This document shows positions 12,784 through 24,343 of a stretch of DNA of 64,000 bases, in pieces. Positions within the stretch are counted from its first letter, which is position 1. Every line of letters begins with the position of its first letter. The position numbers were made by a program, and so were the translations under genes. Below the pieces are notes generated by a model, which was not told the origin of the DNA, ran no database searches, and saw nothing but the letters and a program-made list of their open reading frames with translations. The DNA lies in the NCBI GenBank assembly GCA_963774265.1, contig CAVZDU010000001.1, forward strand, positions 768,001 through 832,000, in the 5' to 3' direction. Origin of the DNA: an uncultured Chloroflexia bacterium (GTDB lineage: Bacteria > Chloroflexota > Anaerolineae > CG2-30-64-16).

Positions 12784-12924
12784 AAGAATCTTGATGGCGG
12801 CCAATTACAGTGTTGCCAACTGCAGCAGGGTGATACTCAACTACTCATTGCCGGAGACGCAACCAACAACCCGGGGATTGGTGCCTAGCACCCGGCTGCG
12901 CGTTCGCGCGAATGCAGGCGCACA

Positions 12925-13563
12925 TCACGCCTCTCCAATTGCCTCGCGGTCCAACTGATCGAAGAACTGGCGCATGAACGCGCGGCGGTCTTGGGCGATC
13001 GACCTGGCCGTCGTGGTGTATAGTCGTTCGGGGATGCGGTCGAGCTTGTAGACGAACTCGTGCACGGGGGTATAGCCTTCGCCCAGCTCGGCGGGCGCTT
13101 TGGCTGCATCGCCGCCCTGTCCCGCGATCTCGCGCCACGGCCCCCGCCAGAGCGCCGTGCCCGCCGCGCCCGCGTAGGCGAACGCCCGCGCGACGCCGAT
13201 CGCGCCGATGGCGTCGAGCTTGTCGGCATCGGACAGCACTTGCGCCTCGAGCGTGCGGGGCGCGGCGCGTGCGCGGAAGCGGTGCGCCTCGATGGCGTGC
13301 GCCACCGCGTCGACGAACGCCGCCGGCTGGTCCGCGAGGATGTCACGCGCCCGCTGTGCACCCAGCAGGTGATGGCGTTCCCGGTCCTACGTTCTCGCCA
13401 CATCGTGCAGCAGCGCGGCGGTGCGGACGATGGCGAGGTCCGCGCCCTCGGCCTGCGCGATGCGCTCCGCCAGCGCCGTCACCCGCAGCACGTGATCGAA
13501 GTCGTGCCCGCCGCCGCCCGCCTCGTACAACGCGCGCGCGGTGTCAATATCTATAGTCGTCAT
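12925..13563 (-). CDS. HD-domain metal-dependent phosphohydrolase, frameshifted
   Basis: [37 protein letters not shown]. Confidence 0.85.
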
Positions 13564-13570
13564 GAAACAC

Positions 13571-14572
13571 CTAATAATCCGGCACTCTGAGTCGTGAGTC
13601 TATTGTCCGGCCGCGGCAGGCGGCTCGCCGTTTCCCAGGAGCCAGAGAACGCCGCCGGGCAGGCTGCCGAGAAGCATGACGGCCTGCATCAGCAGCGACA
13701 CGGCGAGCGCATGATCTGCGGGCACGCCGGCCAGGCCGAAGAAGAACGGGTAAGCCGTCTGGTTGACGCCGATGCCGCCGATGGATATCGGGACCATCAG
13801 CACGAGCGCGATCAGCGGGTTGAAGAGGAAGATGGCTGGCAGCGACATCAGGCCGCCCATCGACTGCGAAAGCACCAGTTGACGAAGGTCGTGCAGGCGA
13901 TGCCGACCAGCGCGACGCCGAAGGCAGCGCCAGCGGCCAGTAGCGGAAGCGATAGGCGTTGAACGCCTCGGAGATGCGCCCCAGAGCGGCGCCAGCGGCG
14001 CCAGCAAGCGCCAGCTGGAAGATGCGAGCTATCAGCATCGCGCAACCGCCGGCTGAGCAGCACGCCGAAGCCGAGCGCCAGCACTGCCAGCGCAACAATG
14101 GCGACCCACTCCACCTGTTGCAGGTCAGCATGTCCGGTGAAGTTCACCGCGACGATGGCGGCGACGACGGCGGTGCTCATGTAGGCCATCAGACCGATCG
14201 ATGCGATCCACGATGACGGAGACGGCTGCGTCTGCGGTGCGGTCGGTGTAGCGCGCCAGGCCGTAGCCGCGCATCACGTCGCCGCCGACGTTGGCCGGCA
14301 GGAAGTTGTTGAAGAAGAAGCCGACGAAGAGGAACCGGCAGCACCGCGCCGAACGGCACGTGCACGCCCTGGGCGCGCGAGCAGCACCTGCCACTTGACG
14401 CCGTTGACGGTGATGGCCAACATGTAGAGCGGCCAGCGCCAGCAGGAACGTACAGCGGTCGGGCCGGCGAGCTGGGCGGCCACCCGGCGCAAATCAACCC
14501 GGCAGAAGGCCGAGCGACGATCAGGCCGAGGCTGATGACGATCTTGAGGAGGGTGAGCAGTTTATCGCGCAC
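13571..14572 (-). CDS. Lysylphosphatidylglycerol synthase TM / flippase-like membrane protein (UPF0104), frameshifted
   Basis: [33 protein letters not shown]; hydrophobic. Confidence 0.82.
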
Positions 14573-15538
14573 GGGGGCTCCGCCACCGCCGTACGGCGCG
14601 CACATCGTCGGTGGCCTCGGTTTGCGCCCGCTCGGCCTCCACGTCGGCCTTCTGCGACCAGGCCATGTCCCACACGACGTGCCGGTCCTTCTTGATGGCG
14701 AAGTCGTACCAGCCCGAGGAGTCGGGCCCAGGCCTCCAGCACGGCCAGCAGGAACAGCGTCCACACCAGCCGGATCGCGCCCCAGATCTCCTTGAGGGCC
14801 ACCTTGGCCACGCGGGTGTTCTGGATGCTGGAGACCGCGTAGCCGTACTTGGACTTCAGGTAGAGATGGCCGGCGTGGTTGCGCCGCCGCTGGCGCACGA
14901 AGTCCTTGATCGTGTCCGGCCCGGTGTTGTAGACGACGGCATCGGGCGCGTAGCGCACCTGCATGCCGCGCTGGACGACCAGCGCCTCGACGAACGCCTC
15001 GTCCATCGCCACGTCGGGCGGGATGCGGTCGAACACCTTGCGGAAGGCGATCATCTCGCCCAGCCGCGGGATCTCCAGGCACAGCTGGTGCTCCAGCCGC
15101 AGCCGCAGGTGCGTGAACAGGCCCGACCAGGTGATCGGGCGTGTTGACGGGGATCTTGTGCGCGCCGGTCATGCCGACGGTCGGATCGGCGAACATGCGC
15201 ACCAGGTGCTCGACCGCGTCTTCGTGCGGCAGCGTGTCGCCGCTCTCCAGCACGCAGATGTCTTCCCTGGCGTTGCCCAGGAAGATATTGATGGCCGCGG
15301 TCTTGCCCTCGCGCTTCGGTTGGATGAAGAGCTTGATGCGTGGATCGCGCGCGACGAACGATTCGACGATCGGGACGGTGTTGTCGGTGCAGCCGCTGGC
15401 GACGACGATGATCTCGCTGATCTCGACGTCGCGTAGATGTTGGGTCAGCAGCGCATCCAGCAGCCGGCCGATGTTGGCCTCTTCGTTGTAGGCCGTGACG
15501 CCGACGCTGCAGCGCAACTGGGGCTGAATTTGATCCAA
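14562..15538 (-). CDS. Family 2 glycosyltransferase, frameshifted
   Basis: VTAYNEEANIG, SGCTDNT, REGK, SGD, QRRRN (QxRRW-like). Confidence 0.85.
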
Positions 15539-15566
15539 CAGTTCCTCCGGGGATGCTGATATTGCG

Positions 15567-15575
15567 ATTATACCA
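15567..15575 (-). promoter_or_regulatory. Extended -10 promoter (TGgTATAAT) for the GT2-flippase-HD unit
   Basis: Exact TGnTATAAT about 30 nt upstream of the GT2 start. Confidence 0.55.
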
Positions 15576-15606
15576 GCATCCCATCGCGCGCGCTAATGGC
15601 GCCGCT

Positions 15607-16742
15607 CTAGCAGCGGGCGATCTCGATACCCTGGCCGACGACATGCGTTGGGGTGCGGTGGAGCGGCAGATAGCCTTGGGCGGCAAGCGGGGGCAAGGGC
15701 GAAGTGGCTTCGTCGGGCTTGTCGGACAGGGCTACCATCAGGCAGCCGCGCTCTTTGAGCCATTGACATGCCTCCAGGACCTCGCGCGTGATGCAGATCT
15801 CCTCGACGAGCCGTTGGCCCAGGGGCGTGCCCTCCGGCAGGTGGCCCATGCGTTCGACGGTCTCCTGGAATTCCCGGCGCCGGAATGCCTTGAAGGGCGT
15901 CAGGTCGCCGGCAATGCGTACGCGCATAGATGTCATCGTGCAGGGCCCGTACCTCCGGCGTCAGTTCAGACCGCATGCCGTCGATGTGTGCCATGAACTG
16001 ACGGAAGTCGGTCAACTCCAGGGCATCGATCTGGGAGAGCACGGTCTCCAGATCGACAACGCCTGCGCTGAGCATCAGGCAGATGTAGGCGACGTTGTCC
16101 TGGTTATCAGCCGTGAACGAATGATACCTCGGAGCGTTGAGCACTGCGTATACCTGCAGGAACTCGTCGTGCTTGAACACAGATCCGACGGCCTCACTCA
16201 AAGTCGCGTCGATGGCCGCGAGGCGCGCCCGGTCGATGGATTTGTCGTTGCGGCCCCGGGCGCCCAGAGCGGTCTTGTCGATGTCGACGATCGCGACGGT
16301 GCGCCGGTCAATGCTGGCGCCCTCGGCTTGCGCCCGTTCCAGGAAATCGGCCAGAGCCGTCCACCGATTCGCCTGGTAAAGCCCGTCCTGTCCGGTGATT
16401 TGCAGCGTCTGATCTCTTTCGGACCCGATGAAGCACCATCCAGGCCAACCGGTGAGTGTGCGTAGATTCTGGAAAGCGCCGCCGTCGTTCAGGAGCGTAT
16501 CGCCAAAATAGAGGATCTCGCTCGAGCGCGGGTCTGCCCGGATCTACGGTCGTCTGGGCTTGCACCAACAGCCATGCCAATGCCTGCGCGTAGGCCATGT
16601 CCAGTTTGCGCGGCGGGATTCGTCCCTCCATGCCCATTTCATGCCATGCCTCGCCGTAGCGGGGCAACCGCGTATCCATCGCGTTCAGATCCCGATAGAT
16701 CACCAGATCGCCGAAGACATCGGATAACGCACATAGTTCCAT
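15607..16742 (-). CDS. Uncharacterised HAD-like protein with permuted motif order, two frameshifts
   Basis: PRK ... YFGDTLLND ... AIVDIDKT ... ALSDKP; ATG 2 nt after the asd stop. Confidence 0.7.
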
Positions 16743-16743
16743 A

Positions 16744-17831
16744 TTAGAGCCAACCTTGTGCGAATAATAGTTCCGCGTTCAGCAACGCGCCACCGGCCGC
16801 GCCCCGGATCGTATTGTGTCCCAGCACCAGGAACTTGTAATCAAACAGCGGGTCGGCGCGCAGCCGGCCCACGCTCGTCGCCATGCCCTTGCCTGCCAGC
16901 CGGTCGAGCCGCGGCTGCGGCCGGTCGGGTGCGGTGTGCAGGATGATCGCCGGGTCAGGTGCGGAAGGCAGCCCCAGGCGTTGGGGTTCTCCCCGATAGG
17001 ACGTGAACGCCTCGGCCATCTCTTCCAGCGTTGCGGTTTGTCGCAGCTTCACGCTGACGGCCTCCAGGTGTCCGTTGCGGACTGCAACCCGGTTGCCTGC
17101 GCGCTGATGATGAGATCGGCCCAATGGATGCTCTCGCCTTCCAGCACACCCAAGAGCTTGCGCGGCTCAGTCTCGATCTTCTCCTCCTCGCCGCCGATGT
17201 AGGGCATCACGTTGTCGAGGATGTCCATGGACGGAACGCCGGGATAACCCGCGCCCGAAAGGGCCTGCATGGTCACAACGTTTACGGCGGCCAGTCCGAA
17301 CGCGTCGTGCAGCGGCTTGAGCGCACACACCAGATGCGTGCTGGAGCAGTTCGGGTTGGTGACGATGAAGCCAACCTGTTTACCCGACGCGCGCCGCCGG
17401 CGTTGCTGGCCCCGGATCAACGCGGTGTGTTCCGGGTTGACGTCTGGAATCAGCAGCGGCACATCGAGATCCATGCGATGCGCGGATGCGTTGGAGCAGA
17501 CCGCAAAACCCGCGTCGGCCAGTTCCTCTTCCAGCACGCCCGCGGCGTCGCCCGGGATGGCCGAAAACAACAGTCGTATGTCTCGGTCGATGGCGCCGGG
17601 TCCGGTGGGGGTGACGACTCTATCGGCCACCGCATCCGGCATGCCTCCGCGGAGCAGCCATTTGGTCGCCTCGCGATATGACTTACCCACCGAGCGGTCG
17701 GATGCAGTCAGAGCAGCGATCTCGAACCAGGGATGGTCCGCCAACAGGTGGACGAAGCGCTGGCCGACCGCGCCGGTCGCGCCCAGCACGCCCACCTTGA
17801 TCTTGTCTTGAGGCGGTGTAACACCGTTCAT
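16744..17831 (-). CDS. asd: Aspartate-semialdehyde dehydrogenase (archaeal/fungal type), one frameshift
   Basis: GVLGATGAVGQ, TNPNCS, QALSGAGYPG, GHNTIRGAAGG. Confidence 0.95.
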
Positions 17832-17832
17832 T

Positions 17833-18912
17833 TCATCCCTCCCCGTATTGTGCGAGCGCGACGATGTCGGCGTGTACGCCTGCCGCGGCGGCCTCGACGC
17901 CCGCGCCCCGGCCTTGCAGCACGAGCGGGGTGTCGGGGTAGTAGCGCGTCTGGAATGCAACCAGGTTATCGTTTCCTTTGAGTTGCCCTAACGCCGAGTC
18001 GGCCGGCACGGCCCGCATGCCTACCGCAGCGCGGCCATCTTCGATCTCCGCAACATAGCGCAATACCTGCCCTTGCGCAGCGGCCGCGGCGACCTGGGTC
18101 GCGAAGCCGGCATCCAATTCGGGCAGGCGAGCCAGGCAGTCGGCCAGGGAGAGATCTACGTAGTCGGCTGGCAGCAGCCCGGCTACTTGCACGGCGCTCA
18201 ACTCCAGATTCCACCCCAAGGTGCGCGCCAGGATCAGTGCTTTGCGGGCCACATCCATGCCGCCCAGGTCGATGCGCGGGTCCGGCTCGGTGTAGCCGCG
18301 CTGCATGGCCTCGGCCACCAGGCTGGAGAAGGGTTGGCCCGCCTGCAACCCGGTGCACAAGAATCCCAATGTGCCGCTTAGCGCGCCCTGCACCGCATCG
18401 ACCCGGTCGGCGGCACGCATCAGGCCGAGCGTGGCCTCGATCACGGGAACGGCCGAGCCGACGGTGGTTTCGTAGCGGAACCGTTTGCTGGCGGTTAAGC
18501 CATCAAACACTGCCTGCGGCCCGACCAGCGGTATCTTGTTCGCCGTGGCCACGCGGTAACCGCTCTGCAGCGCAAACTCGAGCGCCGGCACTGTCGCGTG
18601 TGATGCGGTCACATCGGCCACAATGCAGTCTCTCATGCCGGCGACCTCCACGATGGCGCTAAGATCTGGCTCATAGGTAGGCTGGCTCAGGGGGAAAGGC
18701 GCGCCGGCAGCCTTGGCGTCTGCAATCGCCTGCAAATCTTGGTCGCTGAGGCCGCCTGCATCCGCAGCCGCGCCGTCGATATCGCACCAGGCGACGATTC
18801 GAAATGCAAGACCGTCGCGTTCGGTGTGGAGCTGCCGCGCTTCGGTCAGTTGTCGCACCAGCGCCCGCCCCACCTTGCCGGCGCCGAAGATGATGAGTGG
18901 AACTCGTTTCAT
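17833..18912 (-). CDS. hom: Homoserine dehydrogenase
   Basis: GAGKVG, TANK, YETTVG, SGTL, GYTEPDPRIDLGGMDVARK, GRGAG. Confidence 0.92.
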   Translation of the reverse strand: MKRVPLIIFGAGKVGRALVRQLTEARQLHTERDGLAFRIVAWCDIDGAAADAGGLSDQDLQAIADAKAAGAPFPLSQPTYEPDLSAIVEVAGMRDCIVADVTASHATVPALEFALQSGYRVATANKIPLVGPQAVFDGLTASKRFRYETTVGSAVPVIEATLGLMRAADRVDAVQGALSGTLGFLCTGLQAGQPFSSLVAEAMQRGYTEPDPRIDLGGMDVARKALILARTLGWNLELSAVQVAGLLPADYVDLSLADCLARLPELDAGFATQVAAAAAQGQVLRYVAEIEDGRAAVGMRAVPADSALGQLKGNDNLVAFQTRYYPDTPLVLQGRGAGVEAAAAGVHADIVALAQYGEG

Positions 18913-20313
18913 GCTTCACCCAACCCAAATGCACTGTGAATGTACCGGATGCCTGCATCCGCATCGGCCGCGCCGAGCACCAGCGAGATGTTCGTCTCAG
19001 AGGACCCCTGGGCGACTGCGATGACGTTAACGCTGTTTTCACCGAGCGCAGAGAACAGGCGAGCTGCAATGCCCGGCGTGCCCCGCATTCCTTCGCCCAC
19101 CACCGCCACGATGACCACGTCAGGCTCGATGCTCACGCGATCGATCAACCGGCGCTTAATCTCTTCTCCGAACGATCCCTCCAACGCCGCGCCCACCGGC
19201 TGCGCGTCGGATTCGGGCACGACGAAGCAGATGCTCTGCTCGGAGGAGGCCTGCGAGATCATCAGCACACTTGCCCCGCGCTGAGCAACTGTTGCGAAAG
19301 TGCGGGCCGCGATGCCGGGCACGCCCATCATGCCGCGCCCTGCCACGGTGACCAGTGCCAGTCCGCGGATCACGGTCAGCGCCTTGACCGTGCCGCCGTT
19401 GGACGACTTCGGAACGACGCGCGTGCCGGGGAAAGCCGGGTTGAAGGTGTTGCGCACACTGATCGGGATGCCGCGATCGATGGCCGGCAGCATGGTCTTC
19501 GGGTGCAGCACTTTCGCGCCGAAGTAAGCCAGCTCCGCGGCCTCACTGTAGGTCAGCTCGGGCAGCGGTCGCGCGCCCTTGACGATGCGGGGGTCGGCCG
19601 TCAGCACGCCGTCTACATCCGTCCAGATCTGGATTTCGTCCGCATCCAAAGCGGCGCCGAGGATCGCAGCCGAATAGTCCGAGCCGCCCCGGCCCAGGAC
19701 GGTGGGGACGCCCTCGGGGGTGGCCGCAACGAAGCCGGTGACCACTGGCATGACGCCCTTTTCGAGCAGCGGCAGCAACCGGCCGCGCGTCGCGGTGCGG
19801 GTCGCCGCCATGTCGGGCGCAGCCGAGGCGTAGTTGTCGTCGGTGACGATTAATTCGCCGGCATCGACTAACTCGGTCTCGACGCCGCGTGCCGCGCATG
19901 GCCGCGGCCAGGATGGGAGCCATCAGGCGTTCGCCCAGCCCGGAGATGACCGCCAGCCCGCGGTCGGTCAACTCGCCGAGGATCGCGACCGCCATGCAGA
20001 GTCGCTCGAACTCGCGCACCCGCTCGTCCGTCTGTGCCTGGATCGCGGCCAGATCGTCCAGGTCATCGACCAGCGCTTCGGCCGCGTCCCGGTGCCGCGC
20101 GATGAGCGTCAGGCGCGCGTCGCGATAAGCCTGCCGGTCGCCCCTGGCTGCGGCGTTGGCCGAGTCGATCAGAAGGTCGGTGACGCCGCGCATGGCCGAG
20201 GTGACGACCACGATCTGGCGGTCGGTGCGCAACTGGTCGGAAACGATGGACGCGACCTGGGAAATCGCCTTGGCGTCGTTGACGGAGGTGCCGCCAAACT
20301 TCAGAACTTGCAT
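18909..20313 (-). CDS. lysC: Aspartate kinase with two ACT domains, one frameshift
   Basis: VLKFGGTSV, LGRGGSDYSA, WTDVDG, DPR, FGAKVLHP, SQASSEQSI. Confidence 0.93.
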
Positions 20314-20377
20314 GATCATACTCCTGCTGTGCATGCGGGTGCTGAGCAGATGCGGTGTGCTGAGCACAAAAAAGCCC

Positions 20378-20684
20378 CTCGCCGTTGGGGCGAGGGGCTT
20401 CGCGGTTCCACCCAATATCAGCCATCCCGCCTTTGTGTGTAGAGACGTAGCATGCTACGTCTCTACACACAAAGGCGAGAAGACTATCTTTGTCGGCCGT
20501 AACGAGGCCAGGCGGAGCGCCATACACTCCCCGGTCGGCCCTGCATCATGAGGTGGCCGGCGGCCGGATTTGAGACGCTCACTCTCGGGGGGTTTTCAGC
20601 GGGCTGATGGCGGGGCAGGCTCACAGCCGATGACCTGCCTTCTCTGGCACCTAAGCGTCGCCTACTCGTCCCGATCAACGTTTT
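20378..20684 (-). ncRNA. T-box riboswitch, probable Thr (ACC) specifier
   Basis: Minus strand: AGUA, AGAGA and GCUGUGA stem I motifs, GAAA-ACC specifier (20591-20593), UGGGUGGAACCGCG T-box, terminator aagcccctcgcc/ggcgaggggctt plus U run; precedes the aspartate pathway genes. Confidence 0.9.
20428..20477. repeat. Perfect 50-bp palindrome with GTAG-family REP core
   Basis: cgcctttgtgtgtagagacgtagca|tgctacgtctctacacacaaaggcg. Confidence 0.9.
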
Positions 20685-20704
20685 GCGTATTTCAGGTGAC
20701 GCCG

Positions 20705-20732
20705 ATTATAACCGGTGGTTCGCATATGTCAA
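20705..20732 (-). promoter_or_regulatory. Sigma70 promoter of the T-box operon
   Basis: TTGACA-N16-TATAAT just upstream of stem I. Confidence 0.8.
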
Positions 20733-20790
20733 ATTGCGTTTCAGTTGAGGGCTATATCACCGGCTCCACGAGCCGGCTGTTGCGCAGCAT

Positions 20791-21768
20791 TCAGGTCTTA
20801 ACGAGATTCACCCAGTAGTCGATCACCTCGAACCCGCGGCGGCGGAAGAGTGAAAATGCCTCAGGATTGTCTTTCGCGTGAACGTGCACCTCTACGGAAA
20901 GGTAACCCCGGTTCGTCATCTCCGCCAGGCCGCGGTCCAGCACGTAGGACCCGAAGCGTAGGCCGCGGTACTGCCGATCCAGGCCGATCCAGGCGAGCGC
21001 TGCGATCGTCGGGTCGGGCATGGGGTACCACACCACGCTGCCCACCGCGCGGGTGCCATCCGCCACGACCAATCCCTGGTACTTGCGTCCGCCGTTGTAG
21101 CCCCAGGCGCGCAGTTGATACACGGGCTCGTCGCCCTGCCAGGGTGAACGTTCATCGATCGGGACCAGGCGCAGATTGCGTGCTTCCAGGCCCGGATTCA
21201 CGGGCTGTTCCCGGCCATGTAACGATGCAGACATGGTGACATCGCCAGGACTGCTGACCTGGTACCCGCGCTTGCCCAGCCAGGCCACCAGTTCCTTATC
21301 GTTGACAGCGCTGATCGCCATGCTCTCGGTGGAGCCGTACCAGGGCGCCCACAACCGTTCCATGATGCCGTAGAAAGGCGCATTCTGGGCCGCAAAGTGA
21401 ATGGGACAGTAGTAGAGGTGGTTTTCCGCCGCGCTCAGCAGGCGGGAGCCGAGGCGAGCCTTTCGAAAATCGGGATCGACCGCAAGCCAGGCGATGTGAT
21501 GTCGGAGTTCGGCCGAACGAGTGGCCGGGACAATGGCCGGCGGCTTAATGGCATGAACTGCCCCGGCAACCCGATCTCCGTCTGTGGCCAGGATCAGGCC
21601 GCGGGCATCGAACTCGGGCCGCACCAACACACGTTCGGCGAATTCCGCTTCGGTAATGGGCGCGTAGTGGCGGTGTCCGGCAAAGGAGCAGTTTAGGAAG
21701 GCCGTCAGTGCGGGCAGATAGGGCGCGGTGAAGTGGCGCAGGACTACCGTCGGCGCTTCGCCCACCAT
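20791..21768 (-). CDS. Tandem GNAT acetyltransferase
   Basis: Two motif-A copies: AVDPDFRKARLGSRLL and LDRQYRGLRFGSYVL. Confidence 0.8.
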   Translation of the reverse strand: MVGEAPTVVLRHFTAPYLPALTAFLNCSFAGHRHYAPITEAEFAERVLVRPEFDARGLILATDGDRVAGAVHAIKPPAIVPATRSAELRHHIAWLAVDPDFRKARLGSRLLSAAENHLYYCPIHFAAQNAPFYGIMERLWAPWYGSTESMAISAVNDKELVAWLGKRGYQVSSPGDVTMSASLHGREQPVNPGLEARNLRLVPIDERSPWQGDEPVYQLRAWGYNGGRKYQGLVVADGTRAVGSVVWYPMPDPTIAALAWIGLDRQYRGLRFGSYVLDRGLAEMTNRGYLSVEVHVHAKDNPEAFSLFRRRGFEVIDYWVNLVKT

Positions 21769-21771
21769 GTC

Positions 21772-22809
21772 TCACATCCCCACGTAGCGCGCATATAAGG
21801 TGGCGGCCTCGGCCTCGTCATGCACACCTTTGATGATCGCGCGGCCATCTCCGAATACGGTGAACTCGCGGCCATCCAGGGTGACGCGCAGCAGGAAGGG
21901 AGTCTGGCGCACATCCGTGGCTCCGCCGAGTCGCAATCGATCGGCCAACGCTGCGAGCGAGAGCGCGTCATCCTCCGCGCCTGCTACGCTCACCTGCACC
22001 GCATCGCGGCCACACAGCGACGTCGTCCGCGCGCCGGCCGACGCTTCGAGGAATTCGAAGTGGTGCAGCGCACACGCGGGGCAGTCAGACCGGGGTTCGC
22101 CGAGCTCGAAACGGTCGAAGGTCCCGTCCCAAAGGTCCACGTGGATCATCCCATCGTTGAGCGTCCCATCGCCGACGAGCAGCTTGATGGCCTCCGCGGC
22201 CACGATTGAGCCCATGAGCGAGACGATCGGGCCGATGATGCCCGCGGTGTCGCACGTTGCGACCGTCCCGGGCGCGGGCATTTCGCCCATGGTGCAGCGC
22301 AGGCACGGTGAGACGCCTGGCCGCACAGTGTGGGTCATACCGTAGGTAGCGAGAACGCCGCAGTAGACCCACGGCTTCCCCAGCTTGACGCAAGCGTCGT
22401 TTAACGAGTATCGCGTCGAGAAGTTGTCCGTGCCGTCGAGCACCACATCGGCGTCGGCGATGAAGGAGAGGATGTTGCCGGGGTTGACGTCTGCGACGAC
22501 CCCTTCGATGGCGATGGTGCTGTTGATCCGGCGCAGCTTGGCCGCAGCGGCAACCGCCTTGGGCAACACCTCCCTGACGTCGTCTTCGTCGTAGAGCAAT
22601 TGCCGCTGGAGGTTGTTTAGTTCGACGAAGTCGCGATCGACTAAACGCAGGTGGCCTACGCCCGCGCGGGCCAGGTGGTTGGCCAGCACCGACCCCGTTG
22701 CGCCCACCCCAATGATGGTTATGTGCGCGTCGAGGAGCCGGCGCTGACCCGCTGCGCCAATGCCGGGATAGATGGTTTGCCGCGCGTATCGTGCTAGGTC
22801 TGCTTGCAT
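21772..22809 (-). CDS. ThiF/MoeB family adenylyltransferase
   Basis: RYARQ, GVGATG, DRDFVELNNLQRQ, DGTDNF, PCLRC, CPAC, SLCGRDAVQ. Confidence 0.9.
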   Translation of the reverse strand: MQADLARYARQTIYPGIGAAGQRRLLDAHITIIGVGATGSVLANHLARAGVGHLRLVDRDFVELNNLQRQLLYDEDDVREVLPKAVAAAAKLRRINSTIAIEGVVADVNPGNILSFIADADVVLDGTDNFSTRYSLNDACVKLGKPWVYCGVLATYGMTHTVRPGVSPCLRCTMGEMPAPGTVATCDTAGIIGPIVSLMGSIVAAEAIKLLVGDGTLNDGMIHVDLWDGTFDRFELGEPRSDCPACALHHFEFLEASAGARTTSLCGRDAVQVSVAGAEDDALSLAALADRLRLGGATDVRQTPFLLRVTLDGREFTVFGDGRAIIKGVHDEAEAATLYARYVGM

Positions 22810-22827
22810 GATGTATTCCTCTGCCAC

Positions 22828-22860
22828 AAGTGCCCGGCACTTTCGAAGTGCCGGGCACTT
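22828..22860. repeat. REP-like palindrome
   Basis: aagtgcccggcactt-tcg-aagtgccgggcactt; related copy at 48605-48660. Confidence 0.85.
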
Positions 22861-22888
22861 AGGGGGCACTTAGGATTTCGGCGCACTG

Positions 22889-23062
22889 TCACTTCCCTGT
22901 CACTTCCTCTGCTTCGCGCAGCTTGGTCGCCAGCGTGCGCAGTAGATCAGATTCGGTCACGATGCCGATGACGCTGGCCTTCTCGTCTACCACGGGCAGG
23001 CCGGCGATTTTTTTTCGGTCATTCTCGACCACGGGCAGATGACGGATGTGACGTTCCTTCAT
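22889..23062 (-). pseudogene. Internally deleted CBS-pair gene (57 aa)
   Basis: MKERHIRHLPVVEND joined directly to RKKIAGLPVVDEKASVIGIVTESDLL. Confidence 0.7.
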
Positions 23063-23063
23063 G

Positions 23064-24343
23064 TCAGGCCGGCACCTTGTCCGGCACGCTGTGTATCCGA
23101 TCGTGTTCGGCGACCTTAGCCTGCAGCAACACGCCGAGGCGGCGGATGCCCTCCTCGATCTGTTCGGGCAGCGCGTTCGAGAAGTTGAGGCGCATGTTGT
23201 TCCGTCCGCGTGTCATGTCCGCATAGAACGCAAAGCCAGGCACGAAGGCGACCTTCGCCTGTACGGCCTCCTGCAGCAGCGGCTCGGTATCGATCCATTC
23301 CGGCACCCGGGCCCACAGGAATAGCCCACCTTCGGGCTGCGTCCACGAACAGCCCTCGGGGAAGTAGCGTCTCCATCGCAGCCAGCATGACGTTGCGCCG
23401 CTCGCTATACACCCGGCGGATCAGTTGGATGTGCTCGTCCAGGAAGCCGTTCTTGACCATTTCCTATGCCAGCATCTGGTCAAAGGTCGATGATGTGCAG
23501 GTCGGTGCCCTGCTTGGCCATGACCAGCTGATCGATCACCTCCACCGGGGCCACCACCCAGCCAAGACGCAGCCCGGGCGCCAGCGTCTTCGAGAAGGTG
23601 CCCAGGTAGATGACGTTGCCTTCCATGTAGCCGTGGCCGTTCAACCCGGCGTCTGCCTGAAAGTCAGCATCCAGCGCCACCAGCGGCGGCAGATGTTCGC
23701 CCTCAAAGCGCAGGGCGCCGTACGGATCATCTTCGACGATCGGGATGCCGTACTTGTTCGACAGACGCACAAGTTCCAGGCGCCGGTCCAACGACAGTGT
23801 CGTGCCGCCCGGATTTTGGAAGTTCGGCAGCACATACATGAACTTCGGTCCGACTCGCAGAGCGGCTTCCAGTAGCTCGGTGCGCAGCCCGTGATCGTCG
23901 ATCGGCACCCCGACGTATTCGGCCTGATAGGCATTCCAGGCCTGCAGCGCCCCCAGGTAGGTCGGTTCTTCGACCAGGATTCGGTCGCCGGGGTTGATCA
24001 GCAGCTTGCCGATCAGGTCCAGCGCCTGCTGCGAGCCGTTCGTGATGAACACGTTGTCGGCCTCTGCCTGGATGCCATAACGCGCCATGCGTTCGCAGAT
24101 GAAGTGCCGCAGCGGCACGAATCCCTCGGTCGGGCCGTATTGCAGCGCCTTCTCGCCCTGCTCTGTCAAGAGCCGGCAGGCCGCCTCCTGCGCCTGTTGC
24201 TTCGGAAACAGCTCAGGCGCGGGCAGGCCGCCGGCAAAGGAGATGATGTCGGGCTGCTGCGCGTACTTCAGCAGTTCGCGAATGATCGAACGCCCCATGC
24301 GCTGGTTGCGCTGGGCGTAGCGACTTTTCCAGAGTGTCGCCAT
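23064..24343 (-). CDS. PLP-dependent aminotransferase class I/II (LysN-like), frameshifts and one in-frame TAG
   Basis: ISFAGGLPAPE, LQYG, GSQQALD, PNFQNP, EDDPY, GTFSKTLAPGLRLGW, RLNFS. Confidence 0.9.

What the first reader, a model, noticed from the sequence alone, without database searches (positions are those of the whole stretch)
15607..16742. Circularly permuted HAD-like enzyme closing a Thr T-box operon that lacks thrB
Seen: the reconstructed protein has PRK (motif III-like) and FGDTLLND (motif IV, 16485-16508) before AIVDIDKT (motif I, 16271-16294) and ALSDK (motif II), giving order III-IV-I-II instead of I-II-III-IV. It starts 2 nt after asd, and the next gene has its own promoter. 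Known: Pseudomonas ThrH, a HAD phosphotransferase, can replace homoserine kinase. Inference: this may be an undescribed homoserine phosphotransferase or phosphatase of the aspartate pathway, or a phosphatase serving the adjacent glycolipid genes.
Basis: partly seen in the sequence, partly recalled or inferred. Interest (0 to 1): 0.72.

Follow-up and report, generated by a model that had tools for sequence, protein, structure and literature searches.

The report
Permuted HAD-like candidate homoserine kinase
The last gene of a threonine-controlled operon in an Anaerolineae-type bacterium encodes an unannotated enzyme that looks like a rearranged HAD phosphoryl-transfer protein, and it is the best candidate for the homoserine-phosphorylating step of threonine synthesis that these bacteria otherwise seem to lack.

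Summary
On the minus strand at 16742-15607 lies one gene, read in three frames in this window. Intact 374-378 aa orthologues exist in relatives, and a near-identical short-read contig lacks the extra base at the first break, so the breaks look like assembly errors. The family has no Pfam, NCBIfam or PDB sequence match. It keeps the four HAD motifs in the order III-IV-I-II. A confident AlphaFold model (pLDDT 97.7) places each motif where a circularly permuted HAD core with a 170-residue helical cap would have it. Sequential fold searches are inconclusive, and profile matches to HADs are weak but permuted as expected. Function is inferred from context. asd lies directly upstream in 66 of 75 loci. 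The operon is ask-hom-asd-X behind a T-box whose specifier ACC (Thr) is invariant in 20 of 20 leaders. thrC follows X in 4 loci. Seven protein clusters are aspartokinase-X fusions. No X-bearing genome searched (0 of 33 and 0 of 18, G000 counted in both) has thrB. thrC is kept in 40 of 41 relatives. I read X as the missing homoserine kinase or phosphotransferase (confidence about 0.55). The phosphate donor is unknown. The main rival is a diverged HomK-like (apgM-like) gene elsewhere in this genome.

The parts
20705..20732 (-). Sigma-70 consensus promoter of the operon (TTGACA, 16 nt, TATAAT)
   Evidence: 12 of 12 consensus matches. It is the only promoter-like site found in 15300-20900. The same hexamers align in the related leaders.
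20383..20687 (-). T-box leader with specifier ACC (Thr), T-box sequence and intrinsic terminator (20401-20371)
   Evidence: RF00230 scores 58.1 bits, below the gathering score of 93, with E 6e-12 in a local search. It is not listed at the gathering threshold. The terminator is reported. The ACC triplet is invariant in 20 of 20 aligned leaders while the bases on both sides vary.
18909..20319 (-). Aspartokinase (ask), split by one frameshift near 19893
   Evidence: tblastn with the intact L020 protein gives two frames, 20391-19894 and 19892-18912. The L020 orthologue carries Pfam AA_kinase plus ACT.
17833..18912 (-). Homoserine dehydrogenase (hom), intact
   Evidence: An ORF of 359 aa. It is 85% identical to the L020 hom in one frame. 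Pfam Homoserine_dh matches the orthologue.
16744..17831 (-). Aspartate-semialdehyde dehydrogenase (asd), split by one frameshift at about 17094
   Evidence: tblastn gives two frames. Near-identical contigs of runs X1 and X2 carry an extra C behind 17094. Pfam Semialdhyde_dh matches the orthologue.
15607..16742 (-). Gene X: permuted HAD-like protein (about 377 aa when read through), in three frames in this assembly
   Evidence: Searches give the frames. Intact orthologues are P0001 and P0002. An AlphaFold model built on P0002 with 82 sequences has pLDDT 97.7 and pTM 0.94.
16523..16524 (-). First frame break: one extra base
   Evidence: DNA alignment to L020 shows one extra base. A 163-nt contig of run X2, with 2 other letters over 16493-16656, leaves out one base at 16524.
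15915..15917 (-). Second frame break: one extra base
   Evidence: DNA alignment to L020 and the tblastn frame boundaries at 15917/15915 show it. No near-identical contig covers this place.
16605..16613 (-). PRK: motif III-like lysine (K46) just before helix 49-66
   Evidence: P44, R45 and K46 are kept in at least 90% of 82 sequences.
16484..16507 (-). FGDTLLND: motif IV (G80-D81 ... D86) at the end of strand 75-80
   Evidence: G80 is invariant, and D81 and D86 are kept in at least 90%. This stretch aligns to the GDxxxD of a PDB HAD and of SerB-like HADs.
16271..16294 (-). AIVDIDKT: motif I (D153-x-D155-K-T157) at the end of strand 148-153
   Evidence: Kept in at least 90% of 82 sequences. It aligns to the DxDGT of HADs.
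15718..15732 (-). ALSDK: motif II (S339) at the end of strand 334-338
   Evidence: S339, D340 and P342 are invariant in 82 sequences. It aligns to the motif II strand of SerB-like HADs.

Best explanation
Gene X encodes a member of an undescribed Chloroflexota family. Its catalytic core is a circularly permuted HAD (haloacid-dehalogenase-like) Rossmannoid domain. The chain starts at the motif III lysine and helix. It then runs through the motif IV strand, a further strand and a hairpin, the motif I strand (Asp153 nucleophile, Asp155 acid/base), a cap of about 170 helical residues at the C1 position, the motif II strand (Ser339) and a last strand.

I propose that X supplies O-phospho-L-homoserine to threonine synthase in organisms that have no ThrB. 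By HAD chemistry, Asp153 would take a phosphoryl group from a donor. The donor is not known; candidates are phosphoserine as in ThrH, aspartyl-4-phosphate from the neighbouring or fused aspartokinase, and ATP. The phosphoryl group would then pass to the hydroxyl of homoserine held under the cap.

The operon ask-hom-asd-X is switched on by uncharged tRNA-Thr through a T-box.

Shown here: motif conservation, motif order, the secondary-structure layout of the model, gene context, the fusions and the phyletic pattern. Inferred: the HAD fold in three dimensions, the reaction, the phospho-aspartyl mechanism and the donor. The frame breaks in this window are most likely assembly errors, not decay of the gene.
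For: Family and fold.
- Orthologues are intact and 374-378 aa long.
- 2434 homologues were found, all unnamed or 'hypothetical', and none of the 120 listed has a Pfam domain.
- 316 clusters at 50% identity match at E <= 0.001.
- 546 species genomes encode a relative. The 80 loci listed are all labelled Chloroflexota lineages: Anaerolineae, Caldilineales, Thermoflexales.
- The HAD motif residues are invariant or kept in at least 90% of 82 sequences.
- The model has pLDDT 97.7, and each motif sits at a strand end or helix start in the order expected for a permutation.
- The top PDB profile hit is the HAD hydrolase 2hcf_A, E 0.06. Its three pieces are X149-175~3-29, X311-335~85-109 and X62-99~157-193.
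- hhalign against 19 SerB-like HADs gives the same three pairings as its top three hits, P 0.027-0.046.
- Only block orders that join 311-377 to 36-140 give one colinear match of 105-107 columns. That is 3 of the 7 orders tried. The best score is 29.6 with P 0.0009; the other orders score 22-24.
- The nearest named ESM clusters are HAD_2/Hydrolase families, cosine 0.76-0.77.

Pathway link.
- asd lies directly upstream on the same strand in 66 of 75 loci with enough upstream DNA. ask is within 5 kb in 37 of 52, and hom in 31 of 52.
- thrC (217-227 bits, cut-off 167) lies just downstream in 4 loci.
- All 7 longer homologues (841-896 aa) are aspartokinase-X fusions, one of them from a Levilinea MAG.
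- There is a consensus promoter, a T-box and a terminator. ACC is invariant in 20 of 20 leaders.

Phyletic pattern.
- Among 41 relatives, X is in 33 and thrB over its cut-off is in 5, all of them X-negative.
- In a phylum sample of 201 genomes, X is in 18. thrB is over its cut-off in 137, none of them X-positive. The 18 X-positive genomes have best thrB E-values of 1e-9 or weaker.
- thrC is over its cut-off in 40 of 41 relatives.
- Other known homoserine kinases were not found over their cut-offs in the 41 relatives: HomK TIGR02535 0, NF040667 0, thrB_alt 0, and ThrH 0 even at E <= 1e-5.

Frame breaks.
- 6 of 10 consecutive genes are split when compared with L020.
- Near-identical contigs lack the indels at 16524 and 17094.
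Against: - No HAD model matches. Pfam and NCBIfam give 0 families at E <= 10, and phmmer against PDB gives 0 hits.
- The profile matches to HADs are individually weak.
- I could not read model coordinates, so convergence of the four motifs on one site is not shown.
- G000 has an apgM-like gene (TIGR00306 356 bits, NF003160 556 bits) in addition to gpmI and gpmA. A protein of that class is the proven homoserine phosphotransferase of Dehalococcoides (GapMind 2026 preprint, passages seen).
- 9 of 75 loci have no asd upstream.
- The T-box motif was found in only 19 of 80 loci, all close relatives, and the window's T-box is under Rfam's gathering score.
- The X-positive genomes fall in few families, so the thrB complementarity may rest on few evolutionary events.
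- 40 X-negative genomes of the phylum sample also lack thrB.
- HAD enzymes are mostly phosphatases.
Confidence: 0.55

Rival explanations
1. X is an ordinary HAD-type phosphatase acting on a small phospho-metabolite such as phosphoserine or another phosphorylated amino acid. Homoserine is phosphorylated by another protein, for example the apgM-like gene acting as a diverged HomK, or by an enzyme not yet recognised.
For: - Most HAD enzymes are phosphatases (general knowledge of the superfamily, recalled).
- G000 has three phosphoglycerate-mutase-type genes, so the apgM-like one could be spare.
- A TIGR00306-class protein of Dehalococcoides rescued an E. coli thrB deletion (GapMind 2026 preprint, passages seen).
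- DUF1015, proposed there as a serine kinase and SerB substitute, lies beside X in 18 of 80 loci.
- No serB reaches its cut-off in the 41 relatives.
Against: - The apgM-like gene was found in only 12 of 24 other genomes of the same family. It was not found in several that are 95-99% complete and have X and thrC but no thrB. It is also present in thrB-bearing genomes.
- A SerB-like HAD of 90-106 bits is present in 20 of 33 X-positive and 4 of 8 X-negative genomes, so X does not complement serB.
- A phosphatase induced by threonine starvation and fused to aspartokinase has no obvious role.
Confidence: 0.2
2. X works with aspartate-semialdehyde dehydrogenase on another branch or in control of the aspartate pathway. 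It might hydrolyse or transfer the phosphate of aspartyl-4-phosphate, or act on a metabolite derived from the semialdehyde. It would not be in threonine synthesis proper.
For: - asd is the most constant neighbour, in 66 of 75 loci. This holds also in loci where no ask or hom was seen within 5 kb, such as L050-L058.
- Aspartokinase-X fusions exist.
Against: - The Thr-specific T-box.
- thrC follows X in 4 loci.
- The strict complementarity with thrB in particular.
Confidence: 0.12
3. X is a phosphatase serving the downstream GT2 / LPG_synthase_TM / HD glycolipid-like genes.
For: These genes follow X in the window and in close relatives. There is no terminator-like site between X and GT2.
Against: The GT2 neighbour is seen in 21 of 80 loci only, all close relatives. 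More distant loci have DUF1015, thrC, FtsH or other genes there, while asd stays upstream.
Confidence: 0.03
4. In this particular organism the gene is a decaying pseudogene, and the frame breaks are real.
For: There are two frame breaks in the window. The second one is not covered by any independent contig.
Against: - 6 of 10 neighbouring genes are also broken, including the essential asd and ask.
- The two breaks that are covered, 16524 in X and 17094 in asd, are absent from near-identical short-read contigs.
- The pieces are 82-91% identical to intact orthologues, with no stop codons within the frames used.
Confidence: 0.05

Closest known systems
ThrH of Pseudomonas aeruginosa (phosphoserine:homoserine phosphotransferase / phosphoserine phosphatase; NCBIfam TIGR02137)
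   Same: Both have a HAD-type active site (DxDxT nucleophile motif with an Asp at +2, a Ser, a Lys and a GDxxxD). ThrH can stand in for homoserine kinase, as stated in passages of PMC5764234 and the GapMind 2026 preprint that cite Singh et al. 2004. Both are linked to threonine synthesis.
   Different: There is no detectable sequence match: TIGR02137 gives 0 hits in the 41 genomes, and NCBIfam gives nothing for X. X has the motif order III-IV-I-II. Its helical cap is about 170 residues, against a small cap in the SerB-like proteins of about 220 aa. X sits in the core thr operon of genomes without thrB, whereas ThrH is an accessory enzyme beside ThrB.
SerB / PSP-type HAD phosphatases (TIGR00338-like)
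   Same: Weak profile matches pair X's motifs I, II and III/IV with those of 19 SerB-like proteins from the same lineage.
   Different: The matches are permuted and are not significant one by one. The same genomes also keep a SerB-like HAD.
HomK / ThrB2 (TIGR02535 and diverged apgM-like forms)
   Same: A non-kinase phosphotransferase replaces ThrB, with an unknown phosphate donor, possibly phosphoserine (GapMind 2026 preprint, Appendix 3 passages).
   Different: HomK has an unrelated fold (alkaline-phosphatase / iPGM-like, with a catalytic Ser). No protein in the 41 relatives reaches the TIGR02535 cut-off.
ThrB (GHMP kinase, TIGR00191) and the Desulfovibrio shikimate-kinase-fold homoserine kinase (NF040667)
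   Same: The same proposed product, O-phosphohomoserine. X and ThrB exclude each other in the genomes searched.
   Different: These are ATP-dependent kinases of other folds. Neither is found over its cut-off in X-bearing genomes.
ThrA-type aspartokinase-homoserine dehydrogenase fusions
   Same: Aspartokinase with ACT domains is fused to a later enzyme of the same pathway. The source annotation even calls five of the seven aspartokinase-X fusion clusters 'bifunctional aspartokinase / homoserine dehydrogenase'.
   Different: The C-terminal part is X, not a dehydrogenase. Pfam finds only AA_kinase and ACT in these proteins.

Membership tests
HAD superfamily | Motif I DxDx[TV] at the end of the first core strand | tested here: met
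   D153, D155 and T157 are kept in at least 90% of 82 sequences. They follow strand 148-153 in the model.
HAD superfamily | Motif II Ser/Thr at the end of the second core strand | tested here: met
   S339 is invariant. It follows strand 334-338.
HAD superfamily | Motif III Lys before the helix that leads into the motif IV strand, and motif IV acidic residues (GDxxxD) | tested here: met
   K46 is kept in at least 90% and lies before helix 49-66. G80 is invariant, and D81 and D86 are kept in at least 90%, after strand 75-80.
HAD superfamily | Canonical order of motifs I-II-III-IV along the chain | tested here: not met
   The order is III-IV-I-II in all aligned members. Only block orders that join the C-terminal block to the N-terminal block give a colinear match to SerB-like HADs.
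HAD superfamily | Rossmannoid HAD fold with the four motifs meeting in one pocket | tested here: inconclusive
HAD superfamily | Significant match to a curated HAD sequence model | tested here: not met
   Pfam gives 0 families and NCBIfam gives 0 families at E <= 10 for P0001 and P0002. The best PDB profile hit is a HAD at E 0.06.
ThrH (TIGR02137) | Match to the family model | tested here: not met
   There is no NCBIfam hit for X. TIGR02137 was not found in the 41 genomes at E <= 1e-5.
ThrH (TIGR02137) | Phosphoserine:homoserine phosphotransferase activity | not testable with these tools
   This needs an enzyme assay or complementation.
T-box leader (RF00230) | Score at or above Rfam's gathering score | tested here: not met
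   58.1 bits against 93. There is no hit at the gathering threshold in the window.
T-box leader (RF00230) | AGAGA and AGUA elements, a specifier loop with a codon, the T-box sequence UGGGUGGNACCGCG, and a terminator | tested here: met
   The full-length model alignment covers positions 1-219. The elements and the ACC triplet are conserved in 20 of 20 leaders. Placing the codon one base after GAA rests on Rfam's consensus line and on the pattern of variation, not on an experiment.

The most novel reading that the evidence does not exclude
X is the first natural circularly permuted HAD enzyme, and it phosphorylates homoserine without a dedicated kinase. Its Asp153 would be charged directly by aspartyl-4-phosphate, the acyl phosphate made by the aspartokinase that X is encoded next to and, in seven protein clusters, fused to. 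In lineages where DUF1015 follows X, the donor might instead be phosphoserine supplied by that proposed serine kinase. The first enzyme of the pathway would then also pay for its fourth step.
Probability: 0.12. Interest if true: 0.88.

Novelty: new variant of a known kind. Interest (0 to 1): 0.76.

Why it matters
Homoserine kinase is one of four steps that account for most of the remaining unexplained gaps in amino-acid biosynthesis of prototrophs. It is missing in 16 of 208 genomes in the GapMind 2026 preprint (passages seen). The main text of that preprint does not mention Chloroflexota (0 occurrences).

If X fills this step, threonine auxotrophy would no longer be wrongly predicted for Anaerolineae, Caldilineales and relatives. 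At least 546 species genomes carry the gene. These bacteria are abundant in soils, sediments and digesters.

It would also add a fifth unrelated solution to this reaction, and a natural example of a circularly permuted HAD core. My literature searches turned up no such example. The hypothesis is directly testable by complementing an E. coli thrB deletion.

Tried and rejected
Searches that gave nothing useful.
- Pfam, NCBIfam and PDB sequence searches of the pieces and of intact orthologues gave nothing, or only noise.
- The search for related loci with the diverse alignment A2 failed for lack of a conserved stretch. The closer alignment A1 worked.
- The search of earlier findings by sequence and by place returned nothing.

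Ideas tested and dropped.
- DUF1015 as an obligatory partner: it was found in 29 of 33 X-positive and 3 of 8 X-negative relatives, so it is not obligatory.
- X as a SerB replacement: there is no complementary pattern.
- Known homoserine kinases in X-bearing genomes: thrB, thrB_alt, HomK, the shikimate-kinase-fold type and ThrH are all under their cut-offs or not found. The 65-95-bit NF040667 hits lie in frames of about 550 aa in most genomes that have them, and they occur in thrB-bearing genomes too. I read them as the shikimate kinase proper; that reading was not tested further.

Sequencing runs.
- Public runs held only small shares of the stretch (at most 0.16). They were used only where a near-identical contig crossed a frame break. 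The second break is not covered.

Literature.
- Searches for a permuted HAD used 'circular permutation' + 'haloacid dehalogenase' (9 papers), 'circularly permuted' + 'HAD' (swamped by the English word) and 'HAD superfamily' + 'permut' (28 papers, 15 listed).
- Passages read in PMC2575518, PMC9207746, PMC7824862 and PMC6957218 do not describe one.
- Searches for 'homoserine kinase' with Anaerolinea or Chloroflex found nothing on this gene in the listings.
- Subscription journals are not covered. In particular, I did not see the 2006 HAD survey by Burroughs et al., which is cited in those papers.
Full report
What is in the window

On the minus strand between 16742 and 15607 there is one gene whose reading frame changes twice. 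tblastn with intact orthologues places the three pieces at 16742-16521, about 16531-15917 and 15915-15616. They are 82-91% identical to the closest proteins, P0005 and P0006, with no stop codons inside the frames used. DNA alignment to the orthologous locus L020 shows one extra base at 16524/16523 and one at about 15916.

The same kind of damage affects the neighbours. Compared with the proteins of L020, 6 of 10 consecutive genes in the window are split over two or three frames: the aminotransferase, ask, asd, X, GT2 and the LPG_synthase_TM gene. The genome has 10 contigs and only 84% estimated completeness. This fits a long-read assembly with indel errors.

A short-read contig of public run X2 is 163 nt long and differs by 2 letters over 16493-16656. 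It leaves out one base exactly at 16524. Contigs of runs X1 and X2 carry an extra C behind 17094, the site of the asd break. The second break in X is not covered by any contig. I therefore treat the gene as intact in the organism.

The protein family

Relatives encode intact proteins of 374-378 aa in the same place. Neither the pieces nor the intact proteins match any Pfam or NCBIfam model at E <= 10, and phmmer finds no PDB chain.

The family is sizeable but taxonomically narrow:
- 2434 homologues among the candidates scored, all unnamed or 'hypothetical';
- 316 clusters at 50% identity with E <= 0.001;
- relatives in 546 species genomes, of which the 80 listed are all labelled Anaerolineae, Caldilineales, Thermoflexales or unclassified Chloroflexota.

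In 41 relatives of the window's genome the gene is present in 33. That is all 25 of the same family, counting G000, and 8 of 16 other families of the class.

Is it a permuted HAD?

- P44-R45-K46;
- G80-D81 and D86;
- D153-x-D155-K156-T157;
- S339-D340-K341-P342.

The AlphaFold model built on this alignment is very confident: pLDDT 97.7, pTM 0.94, and 374 of 377 residues at 90 or above. Its secondary structure runs as follows:
- K46, then helix 49-66;
- strand 75-80, ending at GD81;
- helix 83-97 and strand 101-106;
- a hairpin, then helix 127-139;
- strand 148-153, ending at D153xD155;
- an all-helical region, 166-330;
- strand 334-338, ending at S339;
- helix 350-354 and strand 365-368.

In the canonical HAD core, as I recall it from the literature, the order is: strand 1 with motif I, a cap at the C1 position, strand 2 with motif II, strand 3, a helix headed by the motif III lysine, strand 4 with motif IV, and strand 5. 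The model's order is this chain cut between strand 3 and the motif III helix and rejoined at the old termini, which is a circular permutation. The Asp two residues after the nucleophile is the general acid/base of HAD phosphatases, mutases and phosphotransferases (recalled). It fits transfer to or from an alcohol.

Independent but weak support:
- A profile of the 82 sequences has, as its best hit among 177,635 PDB sequences, the HAD hydrolase 2hcf_A (E 0.06). The match is in three pieces whose order is permuted: X149-175 to 3-29, X311-335 to 85-109 and X62-99 to 157-193.
- hhalign against 19 SerB-like HADs taken from the same lineage gives the same three pairings as its three best local hits, P 0.027-0.046.
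- I re-ordered alignment blocks in seven ways. Only the three orders that place block 311-377 directly before block 36-140 gave one colinear alignment of 105-107 columns spanning motifs II, III and IV (best score 29.6, P 0.0009). The other four orders gave separate pieces scoring 22-24.
- The language-model atlas lists HAD_2/Hydrolase clusters as the nearest named neighbours, but at 0.76-0.77, which is only a lead.

Fold searches with sequential aligners cannot see a permutation, and they are inconclusive:
- Foldseek gives no match at E <= 0.001.
- The second look is similar, with no HAD among the 50 rows.

I could not inspect coordinates, so the meeting of the motifs in one pocket is inferred. 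I put the permuted-HAD reading at about 0.8.

Context

The operon reads, on the minus strand:
- a 12-of-12 consensus promoter, 20732-20705;
- a T-box leader, 20687-20383, with its terminator at 20401-20371;
- ask, hom, asd and then X, with 1-nt gaps between hom and asd and between asd and X.

The T-box scores 58 bits, under Rfam's gathering score of 93, and is not reported at that threshold. The same leader precedes the operon in 19 related loci. In the alignment of all 20, the triplet ACC in the specifier position is invariant, while the base before it (A or G) and after it (C or A) varies. ACC is a threonine codon.

Across the 80 related loci:
- asd lies directly upstream on the same strand in 66 of the 75 with at least 1.3 kb of upstream DNA. 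ask is within 5 kb in 37 of 52 and hom in 31 of 52.
- What follows X varies. GT2, LPG_synthase_TM and HD genes follow only in close relatives (21 loci). DUF1015 is in 18 loci, followed by serine hydroxymethyltransferase in the one locus I scanned. FtsH follows in Caldilineaceae (9 loci). Threonine synthase, over its NCBIfam cut-off, follows in the 4 loci tested.
- All seven longer homologues found (841-896 aa, 25 member sequences, one from a Levilinea MAG) are aspartokinase (AA_kinase plus ACT) fused to X.

Does the genome lack homoserine kinase?

In G000:
- thrB (TIGR00191) has a best hit of 31 bits against a cut-off of 168;
- thrB_alt and ThrH give nothing;
- HomK (TIGR02535) gives 174 bits against 446;
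- thrC is present.

Across the 41 relatives, thrB is over its cut-off in 5 genomes, all of them among the 8 without X. Across a phylum sample of 201 genomes, X is in 18 and thrB is over its cut-off in 137, with no overlap. Six further X-negative genomes have sub-threshold hits with E <= 1e-30, and 40 X-negative genomes have neither.

thrC is over its cut-off in 40 of 41 relatives, so O-phosphohomoserine is still needed. thrB_alt and ThrH are likewise not found.

These genomes are related to each other, so the number of independent events behind the pattern may be small.

The main rival

The GapMind 2026 preprint (passages read) reports three relevant things:
- homoserine kinase is still missing in 16 of 208 prototrophs;
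- the iPGM-like HomK replaces it in Bacteroides;
- a Dehalococcoides protein that TIGRFAMs classes as apgM also rescues an E. coli thrB deletion.

G000 has such an apgM-like gene (NF003160 556 bits, TIGR00306 356 bits) beside gpmI, and also has gpmA, so it could be spare. However, this gene was found in only 12 of the 24 other genomes of the family. It is also found in thrB-bearing genomes. X, in contrast, is in all 25 of the family. In the family members without the apgM-like gene, X is the only candidate I can see.

A SerB-replacement role is not supported by the phyletic pattern. DUF1015, which the same preprint proposes to be a serine kinase that substitutes for SerB, is common in X-bearing genomes (29 of 33) but not universal.

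Mechanism proposed

X would form a phospho-Asp153 intermediate and pass the phosphate to homoserine, yielding O-phosphohomoserine for ThrC. ThrH of Pseudomonas does this with phosphoserine as donor, according to passages in PMC5764234 and the preprint that cite Singh et al. 2004.

The donor for X is open:
- Phosphoserine fits the DUF1015 and glyA neighbours.
- Aspartyl-4-phosphate fits the constant ask/asd neighbourhood and the aspartokinase fusions.
- ATP cannot be excluded, given the large conserved cap. Its conserved residues include R162-G-R-N-D166, T210-x-D-N-Q-D215, T281-P-F-K284 and R287.

None of this is shown. I give the homoserine-phosphorylating role about 0.55.

Novelty

My literature searches found no description of a circularly permuted HAD or of this gene. 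Coverage excludes most subscription journals. I rate it a new variant of a known kind: HAD-type phosphotransfer standing in for homoserine kinase, as with ThrH, but in a new, permuted, unannotated family that appears to be the primary enzyme of a large lineage.

Noticed in passing
window 12900-24300 (whole neighbourhood): Frame breaks are frequent in this assembly. 6 of 10 consecutive genes are split when compared with the L020 orthologues. Elsewhere in G000, gpmA, a second thrC copy and DUF1015 are also matched in pieces. Gene calls in this genome should be read through indels.
   Followed up: partly
proteins P0220, P0231, P0235, P0250, P0265 (576-620 aa) and P0207 (816 aa): Distant homologues, 30-34% identical, carry the X domain with all four motifs behind an N-terminal extension of about 210-440 residues that has no Pfam match at E <= 0.01. 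Their function and taxonomy are unknown.
   Followed up: partly
protein P0129 (528 aa): X is fused to a C-terminal Prok-JAB domain (Pfam PF14464, E 2.9e-24). JAB proteins often work with sulfur-carrier proteins (recalled). I did not check whether this is a true fusion.
   Followed up: no
G000:C1:365966-371434 (outside the window; locus L014): An apgM-like gene lies between two genes for proteins of about 400 aa with C-terminal phosphoribulokinase/uridine-kinase-like domains, and about 1.3 kb from gpmI. It could be a diverged HomK.
   Followed up: partly
window 20430-20480, minus strand, inside the T-box leader: A long, nearly perfect inverted repeat (about 20 nt arms around GCATGC) sits in the variable region between Stem I and the T-box sequence. 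It is present in the window and in L020 but not in the other leaders.
   Followed up: no
window 20794-22809 and loci L020, L022, L023, L026, L028, L029 and others: ThiF-family and double-GNAT genes lie just upstream of the T-box operon on the same strand. They recur in several related loci. No link to the operon was examined.
   Followed up: no
loci L060, L061, L066: The gene order is X, DUF1015, and then a further conserved gene. In L060 that gene is serine hydroxymethyltransferase by Pfam. This points to a serine/phosphoserine connection in part of the family.
   Followed up: partly
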